From the IMG/VR virus record IMGVR_UViG_2585427767_000006: a stretch of 47,449 nucleotides of DNA; one strand, given 5' to 3'. Source of the stretch: a virus (lineage: Duplodnaviria > Heunggongvirae > Uroviricota > Caudoviricetes). The translations under genes were made by a program, and so were the position numbers. This document shows, one piece after another, positions 30,163-43,274 of this stretch. The notes under the pieces are model-generated. The model had not been told where the DNA came from, searched no databases, and was given only the letters and a program-made list of their open reading frames with translations. Positions within the stretch are counted from its first letter, which is position 1. Each line of letters starts with the position of its first letter.

Positions 30163-30218
30163 GGAGTTTACTCACATCTGACAAAATCAATATAAACAGC
30201 CCCTCCGGAGAGGGGCTG
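30132..30218. terminator. Tandem hairpins (likely bidirectional terminators) after the plus-strand cargo ORF
   Basis: 12-bp perfect stem TCCTTATGGACT/AGTCCATAAGGA (30132..30165, spanning the stop codon) and 9-bp stem CAGCCCCTC/GAGGGGCTG with 4-nt loop (30197..30218). Confidence 0.5.
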
Positions 30219-30609
30219 GAGAGTGGCGCTATGTGCCATTGCATGGTGCCGGGTGCCTCCCGGTGAATTCAGTACCAGCACCTGAATCCGCGATTATCCC
30301 ATATACCTACTCGCTGATTGCCCCTCCGCACAGGGGGATTCACCATGCCAGTTTCTTTTAACAAACTCCCCGCAAACCAGACAACAATCAACCGCCTGAA
30401 TTGTGAAGTATTTAAAAATTTCTCCCGCTAACTGATACCCGGCTAACAGTCTGGCGTTTTCTTTTTCAGCAACGGGAAAGCAACAACCACCACACCCGCC
30501 ACCAGCACACCGTCAGCCAGCACTGACATTATCCGGCTGCTGCAATGCCATTCACAAAAACAGTAAGCAATCACTTTTTACCGTAACCGGTGATAATCCA
30601 GATATGTAT

Positions 30610-31073: not shown

Positions 31074-31150
31074 TGGCGCGCTGTACTGGATTCGAACCAG
31101 TGACCGATTGCTTAGAAGGCAATTGCTCTGTCCGGCTGAGCTAACAACGC
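31074..31150 (-). tRNA. tRNA-Arg (anticodon UCU)
   Basis: Minus-strand 77-nt sequence GCGTTGTTAGCTCAGCCGGACAGAGCAATTGCCTTCTAAGCAATCGGTCACTGGTTCGAATCCAGTACAGCGCGCCA folds as a cloverleaf with anticodon loop CUUCUAA and T-loop TTCGAAT. Confidence 0.9.
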
Positions 31151-31250
31151 TGAATACCGATAATGGACCGCCATCGGGGACCCGCCCCCGCACCAACAAC
31201 CCTGTTATCGTGTCGTCTGCTCTTCCTGATAAGCTAATGGCGGTTTGTGA

Positions 31251-31326
31251 TGGTGGCCCTTGCTGGATTTGAACCAGCGACCTGGCGATTATGAGTCGCT
31301 CGCTCTCACCACTGAGCTAAAGGGCC
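31251..31326 (-). tRNA. tRNA-Ile2 (anticodon CAU, ileX/ileZ-like; could alternatively be Met)
   Basis: Minus-strand 76-nt sequence GGCCCTTTAGCTCAGTGGTGAGAGCGAGCGACTCATAATCGCCAGGTCGCTGGTTCAAATCCAGCAAGGGCCACCA; 7-bp acceptor stem, anticodon CAU, very close to E. coli ileX. Confidence 0.85.
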
Positions 31327-39487: not shown

Positions 39488-39913
39488 TCAATGCACAGCC
39501 ACAATATTTCCTGCAGGGCCACCACGATTCATCTGGTTGAAACCAGCGATCGCCACTGCGACAAAATCATCAGCGTCTCTCACCAGTCGTTCCCGCGTCT
39601 CCACTAGTTCCCGAAAATAGGCTGAGCTATGACTGCGCATTCGGGCCACCAGCAGAGGTGGCATTGCTTTTTCGATAGCTGGTAACAACGCCTGAATTTT
39701 TTTAACCGCATCAGGGGTGTCTTTCTCCACCCAGCGGAAAATTTTCTGAGTATTGCGAGCCAGGGCTTCCGGATGGCTGTCGTCATACAGTTCTGGGAAC
39801 GTCATACCCAACTCAAAATAAGCCTGGGTTATTCCAGCTGCTGGAACTTTTTCGCCATCAGGACGCGCCCAGGCATTCATCGCCATGCGGATGTGTTCAT
39901 GCTTGATTTTCAT
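39488..39913 (-). CDS. YdaT-like protein (CII-position regulator of Rac/Qin-type prophages)
   Basis: N-terminus MKIKHEHIRMAMNAW as recalled for YdaT; ATG overlaps the stop of the cro-like gene. Confidence 0.65.
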   Translation of the reverse strand: MKIKHEHIRMAMNAWARPDGEKVPAAGITQAYFELGMTFPELYDDSHPEALARNTQKIFRWVEKDTPDAVKKIQALLPAIEKAMPPLLVARMRSHSSAYFRELVETRERLVRDADDFVAVAIAGFNQMNRGGPAGNIVAVH

Positions 39914-40164
39914 GAATCAACTCCCATCAGCTTTTTCGTAGTAGTTTTATTCCTGCCAATAGTTAAAATTGCATCGGCAGAAAATAATCCGTTTGATGCA
40001 AGAGCGATTTTTTCAGCGTAATTTGTTTCGCCGGTATATTCTGTGCGAGGCAATTTTCCGTTATCCATCCATTTATAGATTGCTCTTTGGCTGACACCAC
40101 AAACGTCGGCCACAACAGCAACGCGAACAGTTTTGATTACATCTTCAAGTGTTTTCTGGTTCAT
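39910..40164 (-). CDS. Cro-like HTH regulator (DicC/YdaS position)
   Basis: 84-aa product from ATG 40164 with HTH VADVCGVSQRAIYKW; divergent from the repressor gene across an operator-rich 79-bp spacer. Confidence 0.7.
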   Translation of the reverse strand: MNQKTLEDVIKTVRVAVVADVCGVSQRAIYKWMDNGKLPRTEYTGETNYAEKIALASNGLFSADAILTIGRNKTTTKKLMGVDS

Positions 40165-40243
40165 ATCACCCTCACAATGTGAACTTTTAGTACATGCTAT
40201 AACAGAACTGACAGTACATTCAAGAGCGAATATCATTGAACTT
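40165..40243. promoter_or_regulatory. Right operator / divergent promoter region (OR-like)
   Basis: Three direct ~15-bp operator-like repeats GAACT-N4-(A)GTACAT / GGTTCAT at ~40181, ~40205, ~40237 between the divergent cro-like and repressor genes. Confidence 0.55.
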
Positions 40244-40663
40244 ATGGTTCATGAAGATAAAGCGCGTAAAGAGTTCGCCAGTAGGCTTGCGCTAGCCTGT
40301 GAAAACGCTGGTTATGAACAACATGGAAGGCAGGCAGAAATTGCCCGTCGAATGAAATTAACACCAAAAGCGGTTAGCAAATGGTTTAATGGCGAAACAA
40401 TTCCTCGCCGGGAGAAATTAAGGGAATTAGCAACACTAATAGGAACAACACCAACCTATCTTTTGGGAGAGGATACAGAAGAAAGTGGACAGGTACGTTT
40501 CTATCAGGAGTTAAATCCAAGACAAAAAATCATCATTGACCTTCTGGACGAGCTCCCTGACAGTGAGACAGATGAACTTTTAAAAACTCTTGAAGAGAAA
40601 AAACAGAAGTACAATGCAATTTACGAAGAGTTAGCACGAAAGAAAAAACAAAAAGCCTCTTAA
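40244..40663 (+). CDS. Prophage repressor, DicA-like (XRE-family HTH, no peptidase domain)
   Basis: 139-aa product from ATG 40244; HTH region RQAEIARRMKLTPKAVSKWFNGE; acidic/helical C-terminus resembling DicA; divergent from cro-like gene. Confidence 0.75.
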   Translation: MVHEDKARKEFASRLALACENAGYEQHGRQAEIARRMKLTPKAVSKWFNGETIPRREKLRELATLIGTTPTYLLGEDTEESGQVRFYQELNPRQKIIIDLLDELPDSETDELLKTLEEKKQKYNAIYEELARKKKQKAS

Positions 40664-40734
40664 ACCAGCATAAATCCGGTAGCGCCTTCCTCCGGGTTTG
40701 TGCTTCACTTTATCCCATCTCATTTTTTTACACA

Positions 40735-40785
40735 CAAAATGTACTAAAAGTACTTTACAACAATGAACGAAAAGTACATTATATA
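40735..40785 (+). promoter_or_regulatory. Left operator / early-left promoter (OL/pL-like)
   Basis: ATGTACTAAAAGTAC (inverted copy of the OR repeat) and GAACGAAAAGTACATT (direct copy) overlap a TTTACA-N17-CATTAT promoter reading toward the ydfA-like/dicB genes. Confidence 0.45.
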
Positions 40786-40959
40786 CCTGCCACCACCCCG
40801 CCCCACAGAATGCAGGGCAATACTTCGAGTTACCAGGCAGTGGTCAGGGGTTAAGTAGCCAGCCCGAGGCGTAAGAACATGACGGCAGGGTTCAACTTTA
40901 ATAACTATGCAGCAGGTTTTTGTTCCGCTACCCCGGCGTTAAGGGGAAATGAGGTCAGC

Positions 40960-41112
40960 ATGGATACTATCGAGCTTGGCAACAACGAATCTCTGGTATG
41001 CGGCGTGTTTCCCAACCAGGACGGCACGTTTACCGCGATGACATATACCAGAAGCAAAACGTTTAAAACTGAAGCTGGCGCGCGTCGCTGGTTAACCAGA
41101 AACACTGACTGA
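40960..41112 (+). CDS. YdfA-like small protein (DUF1391-like)
   Basis: 50-aa product MDTIELGNNESLVCGVFPNQDGTFTAMTYTRSKTFKTEAGARRWL with SD GAGGT, first gene after the repressor as ydfA is after dicA in Qin. Confidence 0.55.
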   Translation: MDTIELGNNESLVCGVFPNQDGTFTAMTYTRSKTFKTEAGARRWLTRNTD

Positions 41113-41984: not shown

Positions 41985-42037
41985 TTTCTGGTGACTTTTG
42001 GCGGTATCAGTTTTACTCCGTGACTGCTCTGCCGCCC
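41985..42037 (+). ncRNA. dicF: DicF small RNA homologue (53 nt), with intrinsic terminator U-tract to ~42042
   Basis: Sequence TTTCTGGTGACTTTTGGCGGTATCAGTTTTACTCCGTGACTGCTCTGCCGCCC followed by TTTTT matches the E. coli Qin DicF sRNA as I recall it (one mismatch). Confidence 0.75.
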
Positions 42038-42325
42038 TTTTTAAAGTGAATTTTGTGATGCGGTGAATGCGGCTGAGCGCACGCGGAACAGTTAAAACCA
42101 AAAACAGTGTTATGGGTGGATTCTCTGTATCCGGCGTTAATTGTTAACTGGTTAACGTCACCTGGAGGCACCAGGCACCGCATCAACAAAGTTCACTTCG
42201 GTGATGAAAGGTAAGAGAAAATGTTGAATGTAGCTATTGAAAACCAGAACGGGTGGAATTATAGTGCACCTGCACCTCATAAAACGGGTGCCGGGCGTGG
42301 AAACCCGAAATCATTCACGGCGCAT

Positions 42326-42348
42326 AACCGCGCTCAGGCGGTTTTTTT
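42326..42348 (+). terminator. Intrinsic terminator between DicF and the Rha gene
   Basis: Stem AACCGC/GCGGTT, loop GCTCAG, followed by TTTTTTT. Confidence 0.6.
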
Positions 42349-42517
42349 ATGCGTTAAGCACAGCCACATTCGCATTATGGTGGGGCGTGCAGGGCAGCCG
42401 CAAGGCTGGCCGGGTTCCGTGATGACCGGTATTTCCACCCCTGTACGTCTCACCACCCTTATGGTCGTGGAAAACCTCGGTGGTGAGTTAATCAAATTCA
42501 TCGCGGAGGCTGCCATC

Positions 42518-43075
42518 ATGGCTACTATCCTTACCCTTTCTCACCCTGACGTAACCATCGAAAATGGTCGCGCTGTCACTACGTCTGTTGCGATCGCCGA
42601 GTTCTTTGGCAAACGCCACGAACGAGTGTTGGATAAAATTCGCAATCTGGACTGTTCAGCAAAATTCACTGAGCACAATTTTGTGTCGAGCGAATACACC
42701 GACTCAACCGGGCGCAAACTCCCAATGTACCAAATCACCAAAAACGGCTTCGTTTTCCTGGTGATGGGGTTCACAGGTAAAAAAGCCGCAACTTTCAAAG
42801 AAGCCTACATCGCTGAGTTCGATCGCATGGAGGAAGAACTGCGCCAGAATAACGCCCCGTCTCCCGACAAAATGATTCACGGGGACGGACGCACCCTGGT
42901 TATCCGTCTCGACGAACACGGCAATATCAAATTCACTGAAACCGTTCCTGACGGCGCAATGGTCTGCACCCTGGATACCTTCCGGTTTTATCTGGAGAAA
43001 CAAGGATGGACTCTTGTAAACCGGAGCGCAATTAAAAATATGACTGTGGAGCAATTGCTAAAAATTCATTGTTGA
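42518..43075 (+). CDS. Rha-family phage regulatory protein
   Basis: Rha signatures VAIAEFFGKRHERVLDKIRNL and MYQITKNGFVFLVMGFTGKKAATFKEAYIAEFDRME; start at ATG 42518 with SD GGAGG; the upstream part of ORF-track 42221..43075 contains a terminator. Confidence 0.75.
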   Translation: MATILTLSHPDVTIENGRAVTTSVAIAEFFGKRHERVLDKIRNLDCSAKFTEHNFVSSEYTDSTGRKLPMYQITKNGFVFLVMGFTGKKAATFKEAYIAEFDRMEEELRQNNAPSPDKMIHGDGRTLVIRLDEHGNIKFTETVPDGAMVCTLDTFRFYLEKQGWTLVNRSAIKNMTVEQLLKIHC

Positions 43076-43085
43076 GGACGCGATA

Positions 43086-43274
43086 ATGGAAACGTCACTA
43101 CCAAACGTTAATACGTCTGACGGGTGCTTTAATATTGGTGTTCTGCTCAGTAACAGGGATTTCACCGAGGATGCAATCAATATGAGAAAATATGAACCCT
43201 ACCTGCTGAATGACAATTCCATACTCTCCAGAATTGCCCTTCTTAAACTCGGTATTTTCGGAGAGTGGCGATGA
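43086..43274 (+). CDS. dicB: Cell division inhibitor DicB homologue
   Basis: 62-aa product METSLPNVNTSDGCFNIGVLLSNRDFTEDAINMRK... resembles Qin DicB over the N-terminal 35 aa as I recall it; SD GAGGA upstream. Confidence 0.75.
   Translation: METSLPNVNTSDGCFNIGVLLSNRDFTEDAINMRKYEPYLLNDNSILSRIALLKLGIFGEWR

What the first reader, a model, noticed from the sequence alone, without database searches (positions are those of the whole stretch)
40165..40790. Repressor gene flanked on both sides by copies of one ~15-bp operator motif (OR and OL analogues)
Between the divergent cro-like and repressor genes are three direct repeats of GAACT-N4-(A)GTACAT. Beyond the repressor stop, an inverted copy (ATGTACTAAAAGTAC) and a direct copy (GAACGAAAAGTACATT) overlap a promoter-like TTTACA-N17-CATTAT reading into the ydfA-like/dicB operon. 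This gives a testable operator consensus for the immunity system.
Basis: seen in the sequence. Interest (0 to 1): 0.4.

Follow-up and report, generated by a model that had tools for sequence, protein, structure and literature searches.

The report
HK022-type operators flanking a prophage repressor
The repeated 15-bp motif on both sides of this prophage repressor gene is real and matches the long-annotated operator set of coliphage HK022, so it is an ordinary lambdoid genetic switch; the one unusual feature is that the repressor has a short DicA-like tail instead of the usual self-cleaving domain.

Summary
Five 15-bp imperfect palindromes, TGWAC-N5-GTWCA, flank the repressor gene (40244-40663). 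Three lie between the cro-like gene and the repressor gene (40180, 40204, 40237; centres 24 and 33 bp apart). Two lie after the repressor stop codon (40740, 40764; 24 bp apart) and overlap TTTACA-N17-CATTAT. All three exact matches in the 47 kb window are at these positions (0.16 expected by chance).

The interpretation as OR and OL analogues is supported, and the system is already known in kind. Sequence, spacing and promoter overlaps match the oR and oL sites annotated in the 1989 GenBank record of phage HK022 (X16093). The same 15-bp operator class was dissected biochemically for phage 933W.

The repressor's N-terminal DNA-binding domain is 47-58% identical to HK022 CI, and the cro-like protein is 60% identical to HK022 Cro. 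In about 30 diverged prophage loci, from Enterobacteriaceae to Vibrio and Haemophilus, the sites keep their positions. The downstream pair stays with the leftward promoter even where cargo genes separate it from the repressor gene.

Only the C-terminal tail is DicA-like (30% identity, no S24 peptidase domain). Qin's own operator motif is absent here.

This is a new member of a known kind, of low interest.

The parts
39488..39913 (-). YdaT-family gene in the CII position, downstream of cro in the rightward-promoter (PR-like) operon
   Evidence: Pfam YdaT_toxin E=1e-9. PHROG 'CII-like transcriptional activator' E=6e-45. Near-identical to PDB 3c4r and E=7e-78 to 8bt1, the CP-933P YdaT.
39903..39920 (.). 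TTGATTTTCATGAATCAA, a perfect YdaT high-affinity site (TTGATT-N6-AATCAA) at the cro stop / ydaT start junction. Probable PRE analogue.
   Evidence: It is the only 0-mismatch match in the window; the next best has 2 mismatches. The motif and its location at the ydaS/ydaT junction are as described in PMC9986795.
39910..40164 (-). cro-like gene (84 aa), a homologue of HK022 Cro
   Evidence: 60% identity to HK022 Cro, E=2.5e-32, and 34-60% identity to the cro-position genes of 18 other diverged loci. No similarity to Qin DicC.
40180..40194 (.). O1 (OR1 analogue) TGAACTTTTAGTACA. It overlaps the start region of the leftward cro promoter.
   Evidence: It aligns with the HK022 oR site at L123 430-444. 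It is conserved at -64 from the repressor ATG in 23 loci.
40194..40223 (-). PR analogue (cro promoter). The -35 is TTGAAT (reverse complement of 40218-40223). The -10 is TATAGC (reverse complement of 40196-40201, spacer 16) or TAGCAT (reverse complement of 40194-40199, spacer 18).
   Evidence: Assigned by alignment to the pR -35 TTGACT and -10 CATAAT annotated in HK022 record X16093. The hexamers are read from the sequence. It scores below the threshold of the consensus scan.
40204..40218 (.). O2 (OR2 analogue) AGAACTGACAGTACA. It lies between the PR -35 and -10. Its spacer CTGACA doubles as the -35 of the predicted repressor promoter.
   Evidence: It aligns with the HK022 oR site GGAACTGATAGTACA. 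The spacer CTGAYA is conserved across loci.
40208..40236 (+). PRM analogue CTGACA-N17-TATCAT. The predicted transcript start is about 40243-40244, which would make the repressor mRNA leaderless.
   Evidence: Promoter scan, 10 of 12 matches. A -10-like TAtaAT is conserved immediately before O3 in 23 loci. No Shine-Dalgarno sequence precedes the ATG. The leaderless start is inferred; precedents are lambda cI and CP-933P paaR2 (PMC8630535).
40237..40251 (.). O3 (OR3 analogue) TGAACTTATGGTTCA, a perfect palindrome centred on the repressor ATG
   Evidence: It is identical to HK022 oR sites at L123 430-444 and 487-501; the latter also spans the cI ATG.
40244..40663 (+). Repressor gene (139 aa). HK022 CI-type HTH domain (residues 1-77), flexible linker, and a DicA-like helical tail. 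No S24 peptidase domain.
   Evidence: Pfam HTH_3 only. The first 102 residues are 47% identical to HK022 CI, and the core DNA-binding domain is 58% identical. The tail is 30% identical to the DicA tail, E=7e-8. The alignment shows S24-type and short relatives. AlphaFold model: helices 2-74, low-confidence residues 77-88, helices 92-103 and 106-138.
40667..40704 (+). Stable hairpin just after the repressor stop codon. Possible terminator or stabiliser of the repressor transcript.
   Evidence: MFE -19.2 kcal/mol, z=-4.25, 0 of 200 shuffles fold as well. It has no clean T-run and was not called by the terminator scan. Its function is not tested.
40740..40754 (.). OL2 analogue TGTACTAAAAGTACT. Its last base is the first base of the PL -35.
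   Evidence: It aligns with the HK022 oL site TGTACTATTGGTACT at L123 1262-1276. The half-sites are invariant while the spacer varies among near-identical loci.
40754..40782 (+). PL analogue TTTACA-N17-CATTAT, reading into ydfA-DicF-dicB-recE-xis-int
   Evidence: Promoter scan. It has the same hexamers and positions as the annotated HK022 pL, TTTACA / CATCAT. It is conserved in 17 other diverged loci.
40764..40778 (.). OL1 analogue TGAACGAAAAGTACA. It lies between the PL -35 and -10 and overlaps the -10 by 2 bp.
   Evidence: It aligns with the HK022 oL site TGAACTTTAAGTACA at L123 1286-1300.
40960..41112 (+). ydfA-like gene (DUF1391), the first gene of the PL operon
   Evidence: Pfam DUF1391 E=2.8e-28. 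DicF RNA at 41986-42037. DicB at 43086-43274.

Best explanation
This is the immunity switch of a lambdoid prophage, 99.6% identical to Escherichia phage Tritos, and it belongs to the HK022/933W operator-repressor family.

The five 15-bp sites TGWAC-N5-GTWCA are operators. I infer that each is bound by a dimer of the 139-aa repressor through its HK022 CI-type helix-turn-helix (recognition helix TPKAVSKW).

Occupancy of O1 and O2 (24 bp apart) would block the leftward promoter for cro, ydaT and the replication genes. Occupancy of OL2 and OL1 (24 bp apart) would block TTTACA-N17-CATTAT and so silence ydfA-DicF-dicB-recE-xis-int. O3 sits on the start codon and the predicted +1 of a leaderless repressor mRNA. 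It would give negative autoregulation by the repressor and shut-off of repressor synthesis by the HK022-type Cro.

The repressor has a DicA-like helical tail instead of an S24 self-cleavage domain. Induction is therefore inferred to be independent of RecA-stimulated cleavage, for example through an antirepressor, as shown for DicA and Rem.

What is shown here: the sites, their geometry, their conservation, and the homologies. What is inferred: binding, cooperativity, OL-OR looping, the leaderless start, and the induction route.
For: 1. The sites are present and non-random: 3 exact matches against 0.16 expected, all at these positions; 5 of the 13 matches with one mismatch or fewer lie in about 115 bp.

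2. HK022 record X16093 annotates oR sites TGAACTTATGGTTCA, GGAACTGATAGTACA and TGAACTTATGGTTCA. The last spans the cI ATG. It annotates oL sites TGTACTATTGGTACT and TGAACTTTAAGTACA, with pL TTTACA/CATCAT and pR TTGACT/CATAAT. Offsets, spacings (24/33 and 24) and promoter overlaps are the same as in the window.

3. The first 102 residues of the repressor are 47% identical to HK022 CI, and the core DNA-binding domain is 58% identical. The recognition helix is TPKAVSKW against TPKAISKW in HK022. K42 and K46 are conserved; in the 933W repressor the K46A change abolishes specific binding, and K42 is predicted by the authors' model to contact DNA (PMC3317979; alignment). Cro is 60% identical to HK022 Cro.

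4. The 933W operator is a 15-bp rotationally symmetric site with conserved positions 2-5, shown by in vitro selection, mutagenesis and footprinting (PMC3317979). The motif here has the same architecture.

5. Comparative footprint. In 23 diverged loci (repressor N-domain 44-75% identical) the sites sit at -64, -40 and -7 from the ATG. Half-site columns carry 1.54 bits, against 0.84 for the O1 spacer and 0.77 between operators.

6. The downstream pair stays with the TTTACA promoter at 61 to 2120 bp from the repressor stop. It lies beyond inserted cargo such as a 480-aa AAA ATPase or HigBA.

7. Among 80 loci with 99-100% identical repressors, the OL spacers vary while the half-sites are almost invariant; the exceptions are one O1 variant and two loci that lack a recognisable OL2.

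8. HK022 CI binds adjacent operators cooperatively and loops OL to OR (PMC8053113).

9. The repressor has no S24 domain, and its tail is homologous to that of DicA. DicA is not cleaved after SOS and is antagonised by Rem (PMC10448788).
Against: There are no binding or expression data for this repressor.

Cooperativity and looping in HK022 depend on its own C-terminal region, which is replaced here. [quoted passage not shown]

The centre of O2 lies about 33 bp upstream of the predicted repressor transcript start. This is not the geometry of activation at lambda OR2, so positive autoregulation is uncertain.

The PR-like -10 (TATAGC or TAGCAT) is weak and falls below the scan threshold.

The left half of OL1 has G at position 6, a base type that lowered 933W repressor affinity.

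No LexA box was found. The only antirepressor-like ORF found lies inside the repressed PL operon, so the inducing signal is unknown.
Confidence: 0.9

Rival explanations
1. The region is a Qin-type DicA/DicC immunity locus. On this view the repeats are DicA operators equivalent to Oc, Om and Oa and to the dicBp operators of E. coli K-12.
For: The gene order is the same: a divergent small HTH gene, a short repressor, then ydfA-DicF-dicB. The repressor is 29% identical to DicA overall and 30% in the tail. Qin also has three sites upstream and two sites over dicBp (PMC10448788).
Against: Qin's operators are a different motif, TTAGY-N4-RCTAA, with the tested Oc being TTGTTAGTCATAACTAACAA (PMC3441716). 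That motif is not enriched in the window. The window's motif is absent from the Qin locus. The cro-like protein has no similarity to DicC. The DNA-binding domain is far closer to HK022 CI (47-58%) than to DicA (29% over 48 residues).
Confidence: 0.05
2. The repeats are chance similarities or shared promoter elements in AT-rich intergenic DNA, and no dedicated protein binds them.
For: The pattern was defined from the sites themselves. The sites overlap -10 and -35 hexamers, which are conserved in their own right. Eight single-mismatch matches occur elsewhere in the window.
Against: No shuffle in 100 reaches the observed counts. The same half-sites recur at fixed offsets in about 30 loci whose surrounding sequence has diverged. 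This includes columns outside any promoter hexamer. The equivalent sites are annotated in HK022, and the equivalent 933W operators were shown to bind repressor.
Confidence: 0.02
3. The sites are used mainly by the Cro-like protein or by the CII-like YdaT protein, not by the repressor.
For: In lambdoid switches Cro binds the same operators as the repressor. The Cro here co-varies with the operators across loci. YdaT is a DNA-binding tetramer encoded next door.
Against: YdaT recognises a different repeat, TTGATT-N6-AATCAA, and a perfect copy lies elsewhere, at 39903-39920. Sharing of the sites by Cro is part of the main model, not an alternative to it. The repressor's recognition helix is invariant wherever the motif is kept.
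Confidence: 0.03

Closest known systems
Coliphage HK022 immunity region (cI, cro, OR1-3, OL; GenBank X16093; repressor-operator studies by Carlson and Little 1993, as summarised in PMC8053113)
   Same: The operator is the same 15-bp site. O3 is identical to HK022 OR1 and OR3, and the sets of half-sites are nearly identical. The centre spacings are the same (24/33 in OR, 24 in OL). OR3 lies across the repressor ATG in both. The -35/-10 overlaps at the leftward promoter (TTTACA...CATYAT) and at the cro promoter are the same. The CI N-domain and Cro are homologous.
   Different: The repressor tail is a 60-residue DicA-like helical region, not an S24 self-cleavage domain. No far-right site past cro and no third OL site are detectable. 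The leftward operon encodes ydfA-DicF-dicB, not nun. The gene in the CII position is YdaT-type.
Shiga-toxin phage 933W repressor and operators (PMC3317979, PMC5977221)
   Same: The operator is 15 bp and rotationally symmetric, with conserved G-W-A-C at positions 2-5 and T or C at position 6. OR has three sites and OL has two. OR3 overlaps the cI ATG. The N-domain is 51% identical, with K42 and K46 conserved.
   Different: The recognition helix differs (SSKGVSKW against TPKAVSKW), and position 1 is usually C in 933W and T here. The 933W repressor has an S24 domain and binds non-cooperatively.
Qin cryptic prophage DicA/DicC/dicBp of E. coli K-12 (PMC10448788, PMC3441716)
   Same: Both have a short repressor without a RecA-cleavable domain and with a homologous C-terminal tail. 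Both have three sites upstream and two over the promoter of a ydfA-DicF-dicB operon.
   Different: The operator sequence differs (TTAGY-N4-RCTAA, a 14-bp core). The HTH specificity differs and the Cro protein (DicC) is unrelated. There is no cross-occurrence of the motifs.
CP-933P PaaR2/YdaS/YdaT switch of E. coli O157:H7 (PMC8630535, PMC9986795)
   Same: Both have a short, non-S24 repressor in the cI position, a leaderless repressor gene (shown there, predicted here), OR plus a distant OL, and a YdaT CII-equivalent with its TTGATT-N6-AATCAA site at the cro/ydaT junction.
   Different: The PaaR2 operators are 18-bp palindromes with half-site consensus GTTTAGTAA. Whether that repressor and its Cro (YdaS) are related in sequence to those here was not tested.

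Membership tests
HK022/933W-type lambdoid immunity switch | 15-bp rotationally symmetric operator with conserved G-W-A-C at positions 2-5 of each half-site | tested here: met
   Nine of ten half-sites fit TGWAC or xGWAC. The architecture matches the 933W operator defined by selection and mutagenesis (PMC3317979) and the annotated HK022 sites.
HK022/933W-type lambdoid immunity switch | Three operators between divergent cro and repressor genes, with the third across the repressor start codon | tested here: met
   The sites lie at -64, -40 and -7 from the ATG, with centre spacings of 24 and 33 bp. This is identical to HK022 and to 20 or more other loci.
HK022/933W-type lambdoid immunity switch | Pair of operators overlapping the -35 and -10 of the leftward early promoter | tested here: met
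   OL2 - TTTACA - OL1 - CATTAT, as in the annotated pL of HK022 and in 17 other loci.
HK022/933W-type lambdoid immunity switch | Repressor N-terminal HTH domain homologous to HK022/933W CI, with a conserved recognition helix | tested here: met
   47-58% identity to HK022 CI and 51% to 933W CI. The helix is TPKAVSKW, with K42 and K46 present.
HK022/933W-type lambdoid immunity switch | Cro homologous to HK022 Cro | tested here: met
   60% identity, E=2.5e-32.
HK022/933W-type lambdoid immunity switch | C-terminal S24 (LexA-like) self-cleavage and oligomerisation domain | tested here: not met
   There is no Peptidase_S24 hit. The protein ends at residue 139, whereas relatives of 234-240 aa carry the GDSM motif. 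The model shows only two helices after the linker.
HK022/933W-type lambdoid immunity switch | Repressor actually binds the sites and represses PR and PL | not testable with these tools
   This needs EMSA or footprinting and reporter assays.
Qin DicA/DicC immunity locus | Short repressor with a DicA-type C-terminal tail and no RecA cleavage site | tested here: met
   The tail is 30% identical to the DicA tail, E=7e-8, and there is no S24 domain.
Qin DicA/DicC immunity locus | DicA operator sequence (Oc TTGTTAGTCATAACTAACAA; TTAGY-N4-RCTAA core) | tested here: not met
   5 matches against 2.9 expected, none forming a cluster. The window's motif is absent from the Qin locus.
Qin DicA/DicC immunity locus | DicC-type Cro protein | tested here: not met
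   No BLASTP alignment with E<=100.
Qin DicA/DicC immunity locus | Repressed promoter drives a ydfA-DicF-dicB operon | tested here: met
   DUF1391/YdfA, DicF RNA at 75.8 bits, DicB E=1.3e-32. Repression itself is inferred.

The most novel reading that the evidence does not exclude
The same operator and DNA-binding module (TPKAxSKW helix, TGWAC-N5-GTWCA sites) circulates with two interchangeable C-terminal modules. One is an SOS-cleavable S24 domain, as in HK022 and most relatives. The other is a non-cleavable DicA-like tail, as here and in Salmonella and Shigella relatives.

If the short repressor recognises HK022-type operators in trans, a prophage of this type would confer SOS-proof immunity against HK022-type phages. 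It could also hold a co-resident HK022-type prophage repressed after that prophage's own CI is cleaved. That would be cross-regulation of induction between prophages that share an immunity specificity but respond to different signals.
Probability: 0.3. Interest if true: 0.45.

Novelty: new member of a known kind. Interest (0 to 1): 0.18.

Why it matters
The practical value is for annotation. [quoted passage not shown] It can now be assigned to the HK022 operator specificity, with exact operator and promoter coordinates, rather than being labelled DicA-like. The result also illustrates modular exchange between the DNA-recognition part and the signal-sensing part of phage repressors. It does not reveal a new mechanism.

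Tried and rejected
1. Qin DicA operator identity was rejected. The motifs differ and do not cross-occur.

2. A structured RNA (put-like or nut-like) in the conserved leader after the leftward promoter (40789-40962) found no support. The fold is no better than shuffles (z=+1.1). There is no Rfam match better than E=0.94. The leader is nevertheless 97-99% conserved in phages with other immunity regions.

3. An HK022-style far-right operator past cro, or a third OL site, was not found even at two mismatches.

4. No convincing LexA box that could drive an antirepressor was found. The four 2-mismatch matches lie in the structural-gene part of the window.

5. An intrinsic terminator between the repressor gene and OL was not called by the scan. 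A stable hairpin without a clean T-run is present at that position.

6. The perfect 13-nt complementarity between O1 and OL2 was judged incidental. It depends on spacer variants that each occur in only about 2 of 80 near-identical loci.

7. The Carlson and Little 1993 paper (PMC206910) is not held. HK022 operator facts therefore rest on the GenBank annotation and on the summary in PMC8053113.

8. A literature search for phage Tritos found nothing. A search combining HK022 with DicA returned 28 papers, of which the 10 listed were judged from titles and abstracts only; none appeared to be about this chimera.
Full report
**What is in the sequence.**
- Between a leftward cro-like gene (39910-40164) and a rightward repressor gene (40244-40663) lie three 15-bp sites:
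  - O1, 40180-40194, TGAACTTTTAGTACA.
  - O2, 40204-40218, AGAACTGACAGTACA.
  - O3, 40237-40251, TGAACTTATGGTTCA.
- After the repressor stop codon lie two more:
  - OL2, 40740-40754, TGTACTAAAAGTACT.
  - OL1, 40764-40778, TGAACGAAAAGTACA.
- Each site is an imperfect palindrome, TGWAC-N5-GTWCA, around a central base pair.
- Centre-to-centre distances are 24 and 33 bp upstream and 24 bp downstream. The repeat finder recovers both groups independently.
- O3 is a perfect palindrome centred on the repressor ATG at 40244.

**Is it more than chance?**
- Exact matches to the pattern number 3 in the 47,449-bp window against 0.16 expected. No shuffle in 100 reaches this count, and all three are here.
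- With one mismatch or fewer there are 13 matches against 3.9 expected. Five lie in about 115 bp of these two intergenic stretches. The other eight are scattered, about one per 6 kb.
- The pattern was derived from the sites, so I relied mainly on independent loci for the test (see the comparative section below).

**Promoters.**
- The consensus scan finds CTGACA-N17-TATCAT (40208-40236, + strand) and TTTACA-N17-CATTAT (40754-40782, + strand).
- The first ends 7 nt before the repressor ATG, and no Shine-Dalgarno sequence lies between them. The repressor mRNA is therefore probably leaderless. This is an inference; precedents are lambda cI and CP-933P paaR2 (PMC8630535).
- The second is overlapped by OL2 at its -35 and by OL1 between the -35 and the -10.
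- The leftward cro promoter is weaker: TTGAAT, with TATAGC at spacer 16 or TAGCAT at spacer 18. I assigned it by alignment to the annotated HK022 pR.

**Where the window comes from.** The region is 99.6% identical to Escherichia phage Tritos, where the genes are annotated only as 'CI repressor' and 'Cro'. It is present over at least 80% of its length in 1047 of 5426 complete E. coli genomes.

**Comparison with Qin DicA.**
- The repressor is 29% identical to K-12 DicA.
- The Qin locus has the same layout: three sites between dicC and dicA, and two over the promoter of ydfA-DicF-dicB (PMC10448788).
- Qin's motif is different, TTAGY-N4-RCTAA. The tested Oc is TTGTTAGTCATAACTAACAA (PMC3441716).
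- That motif is not enriched in the window, and the window's motif is absent from the Qin locus.
- The cro-like protein has no similarity to DicC.
- 'DicA-like' therefore describes only part of the protein.

**The real relatives.**
- A protein search showed that the N-terminal 77 residues recur at 55-75% identity. The partners are 235-240-aa repressors with a C-terminal S24 peptidase domain in Raoultella, Klebsiella and others, and short forms in Salmonella.
- A tblastn search against phage records placed HK022 CI (58%) and 933W CI (51%) in the same family.
- The 1989 GenBank record of HK022 (X16093) annotates three oR sites: TGAACTTATGGTTCA, GGAACTGATAGTACA and TGAACTTATGGTTCA. The last spans the cI ATG.
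- It annotates two oL sites, TGTACTATTGGTACT and TGAACTTTAAGTACA, with pL TTTACA/CATCAT and pR TTGACT/CATAAT.
- Offsets, spacings and promoter overlaps are the same as in the window. O3 is identical to HK022 OR1 and OR3.
- The recognition helix is TPKAVSKW here and TPKAISKW in HK022.
- The window's Cro is 60% identical to HK022 Cro.
- The 933W operators belong to the same class. That operator is a 15-bp symmetric site with conserved positions 2-5 and T or C at position 6.
- The K46A change in the 933W repressor abolishes specific binding, and K42 is predicted by the authors' model to contact DNA (PMC3317979). Both lysines are conserved here.

**Comparative footprint.**
- I fetched 37 loci encoding relatives of the N-domain from one-genome-per-species contigs, plus two loci by exact protein look-up.
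- In loci from Shigella, Klebsiella, Enterobacter, Kluyvera, Brenneria, Pantoea, Providencia, Photobacterium, Vibrio, Pseudomonas and Salinicola the motif sits at -64, -40 and -7 from the repressor ATG.
- Pasteurellaceae loci (Haemophilus, Volucribacter, Gallibacterium) have two upstream sites 57-58 bp apart.
- Over 23 non-identical loci, half-site columns carry 1.54 bits. The O1 spacer carries 0.84 bits and the DNA between operators 0.77 bits.
- The other conserved blocks are the two -10 elements and the CTGAYA spacer of O2, which coincides with the -35 of the predicted repressor promoter.
- The recognition helix TPKA[V/I]SKW is invariant wherever TGWAC half-sites are kept.
- The downstream pair is always ATGTAC-N5-GTACTTTACA-N4/5-TGAAC-N5-GTACATTAT or close to it. 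It lies anywhere from 61 to 2120 bp past the repressor stop, beyond inserted cargo such as a 480-aa AAA ATPase or HigBA. The pair therefore belongs to the promoter, not to the end of the repressor gene.
- Among 80 viral contigs with 99-100% identical repressors, the OL spacers are polymorphic while the half-sites are almost invariant. The exceptions are one O1 variant and two loci that lack a recognisable OL2.

**The repressor is a chimera.**
- The first 102 residues align with HK022 CI, and the two proteins diverge where HK022's S24 region begins.
- The remaining tail is 30% identical to the DicA tail (E=7e-8).
- Pfam finds only HTH families.
- An AlphaFold model (mean pLDDT 83) gives a five-helix HTH domain (residues 2-74), a low-confidence linker (77-88), and helices 92-103 and 106-138. 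The helices suggest a helical oligomerisation region, but this is not established.
- The 24-bp operator spacing is the same in short-tail and S24-tail loci. This is compatible with retained pairwise cooperativity, but it could equally reflect promoter constraints.

**Most likely mechanism** (binding and regulation are inferred).
- Repressor dimers at O1 and O2 block cro transcription.
- Dimers at OL2 and OL1 block the promoter of ydfA-DicF-dicB-recE-xis-int.
- O3 covers the start of the repressor's own mRNA and gives autorepression, or shut-off by Cro. PRM repression through OR3 occupancy is reported for 933W (PMC5977221).
- HK022 CI binds adjacent sites cooperatively and loops OL to OR (PMC8053113). 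Whether the DicA-like tail does the same is unknown.
- Without an S24 domain, induction is probably not by RecA-stimulated cleavage. DicA is relieved by the antirepressor Rem (PMC10448788).
- No LexA box was found in the window.

**Other things seen.**
- A perfect YdaT site, TTGATTTTCATGAATCAA, lies at 39903-39920 on the cro/ydaT junction. It is the only exact match in the window.
- The adjacent gene is near-identical to a crystallised YdaT homologue and highly similar to CP-933P YdaT. YdaT binds this motif at this position in CP-933P (PMC9986795). This is probably the establishment promoter region.
- A stable hairpin follows the repressor stop codon.
- Between DicF and dicB lie an isrK-like RNA, a C4 antisense RNA and an Ash/Rha antirepressor-like ORF.
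- The 170-nt leader after the leftward promoter is conserved in phages with other immunity regions but shows no structural signal.

**Verdict.** The motif and architecture are those of the HK022/933W family, which has been known for decades. What is particular here is the combination of that recognition module with a DicA-type tail, a YdaT-type CII equivalent and a dicBF-type leftward operon. This is a new member of a known kind, of low interest.

Noticed in passing
window 39903-39920: TTGATTTTCATGAATCAA is a perfect match to the YdaT (CII-equivalent) high-affinity operator TTGATT-N6-AATCAA. It sits on the cro stop / ydaT start junction and is the only exact match in the window. It is probably the establishment-promoter region for the repressor.
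   Followed up: partly
window 40667-40704: A stable hairpin lies directly after the repressor stop codon (-19.2 kcal/mol, z=-4.25). It lacks a clean T-run. It may be a terminator or stabiliser that separates repressor transcription from the toxic dicBF operon.
   Followed up: partly
window 42221-43075 (with isrK 42272-42348 and C4 RNA 42373-42460): A module of isrK-like RNA, C4 antisense RNA and an Ash+Rha (antirepressor-like) ORF is inserted between DicF and dicB, inside the leftward operon. It is absent at this place in K-12 Qin and in phage Tritos. It could feed back on the switch once the operon is derepressed.
   Followed up: partly
window 40789-40960: The roughly 170-nt leader between the leftward promoter and ydfA is 97-99% conserved in E. 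coli phages that carry different immunity regions. It folds no better than shuffled sequence and matches no Rfam family. A longer ORF (40879-41112) also extends ydfA upstream.
   Followed up: partly
L083 3808-5250; L085 3553-4220: In relatives, cargo genes sit between the repressor gene and the OL/PL pair. Raoultella and Klebsiella carry a 480-aa AAA_15/AAA_21 ATPase, and Salmonella carries a HigB/HigA toxin-antitoxin pair. This is the position that rexAB occupies in lambda.
   Followed up: no
L123 163-177; L094 3560; L097 3664; L100 3657: HK022 and three close relatives carry an extra site, GGTACTAAAAGTACA, just past cro. It lies about 270-330 bp from OR1, matching the reported HK022 operator about 300 bp downstream of OR that is involved in immunity. 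The window has no such site even at two mismatches.
   Followed up: yes
window 40183-40195 and 40739-40751: O1 and OL2 are perfectly complementary over 13 nt, spacer included. This depends on spacer variants that each occur in only about 2 of 80 near-identical loci, so it looks incidental.
   Followed up: yes
window 30188-30377, 31077-31326: Rfam matches in the late-gene side of the prophage: STnc100 sRNA (132 bits) and two tRNA genes, all on the minus strand.
   Followed up: no
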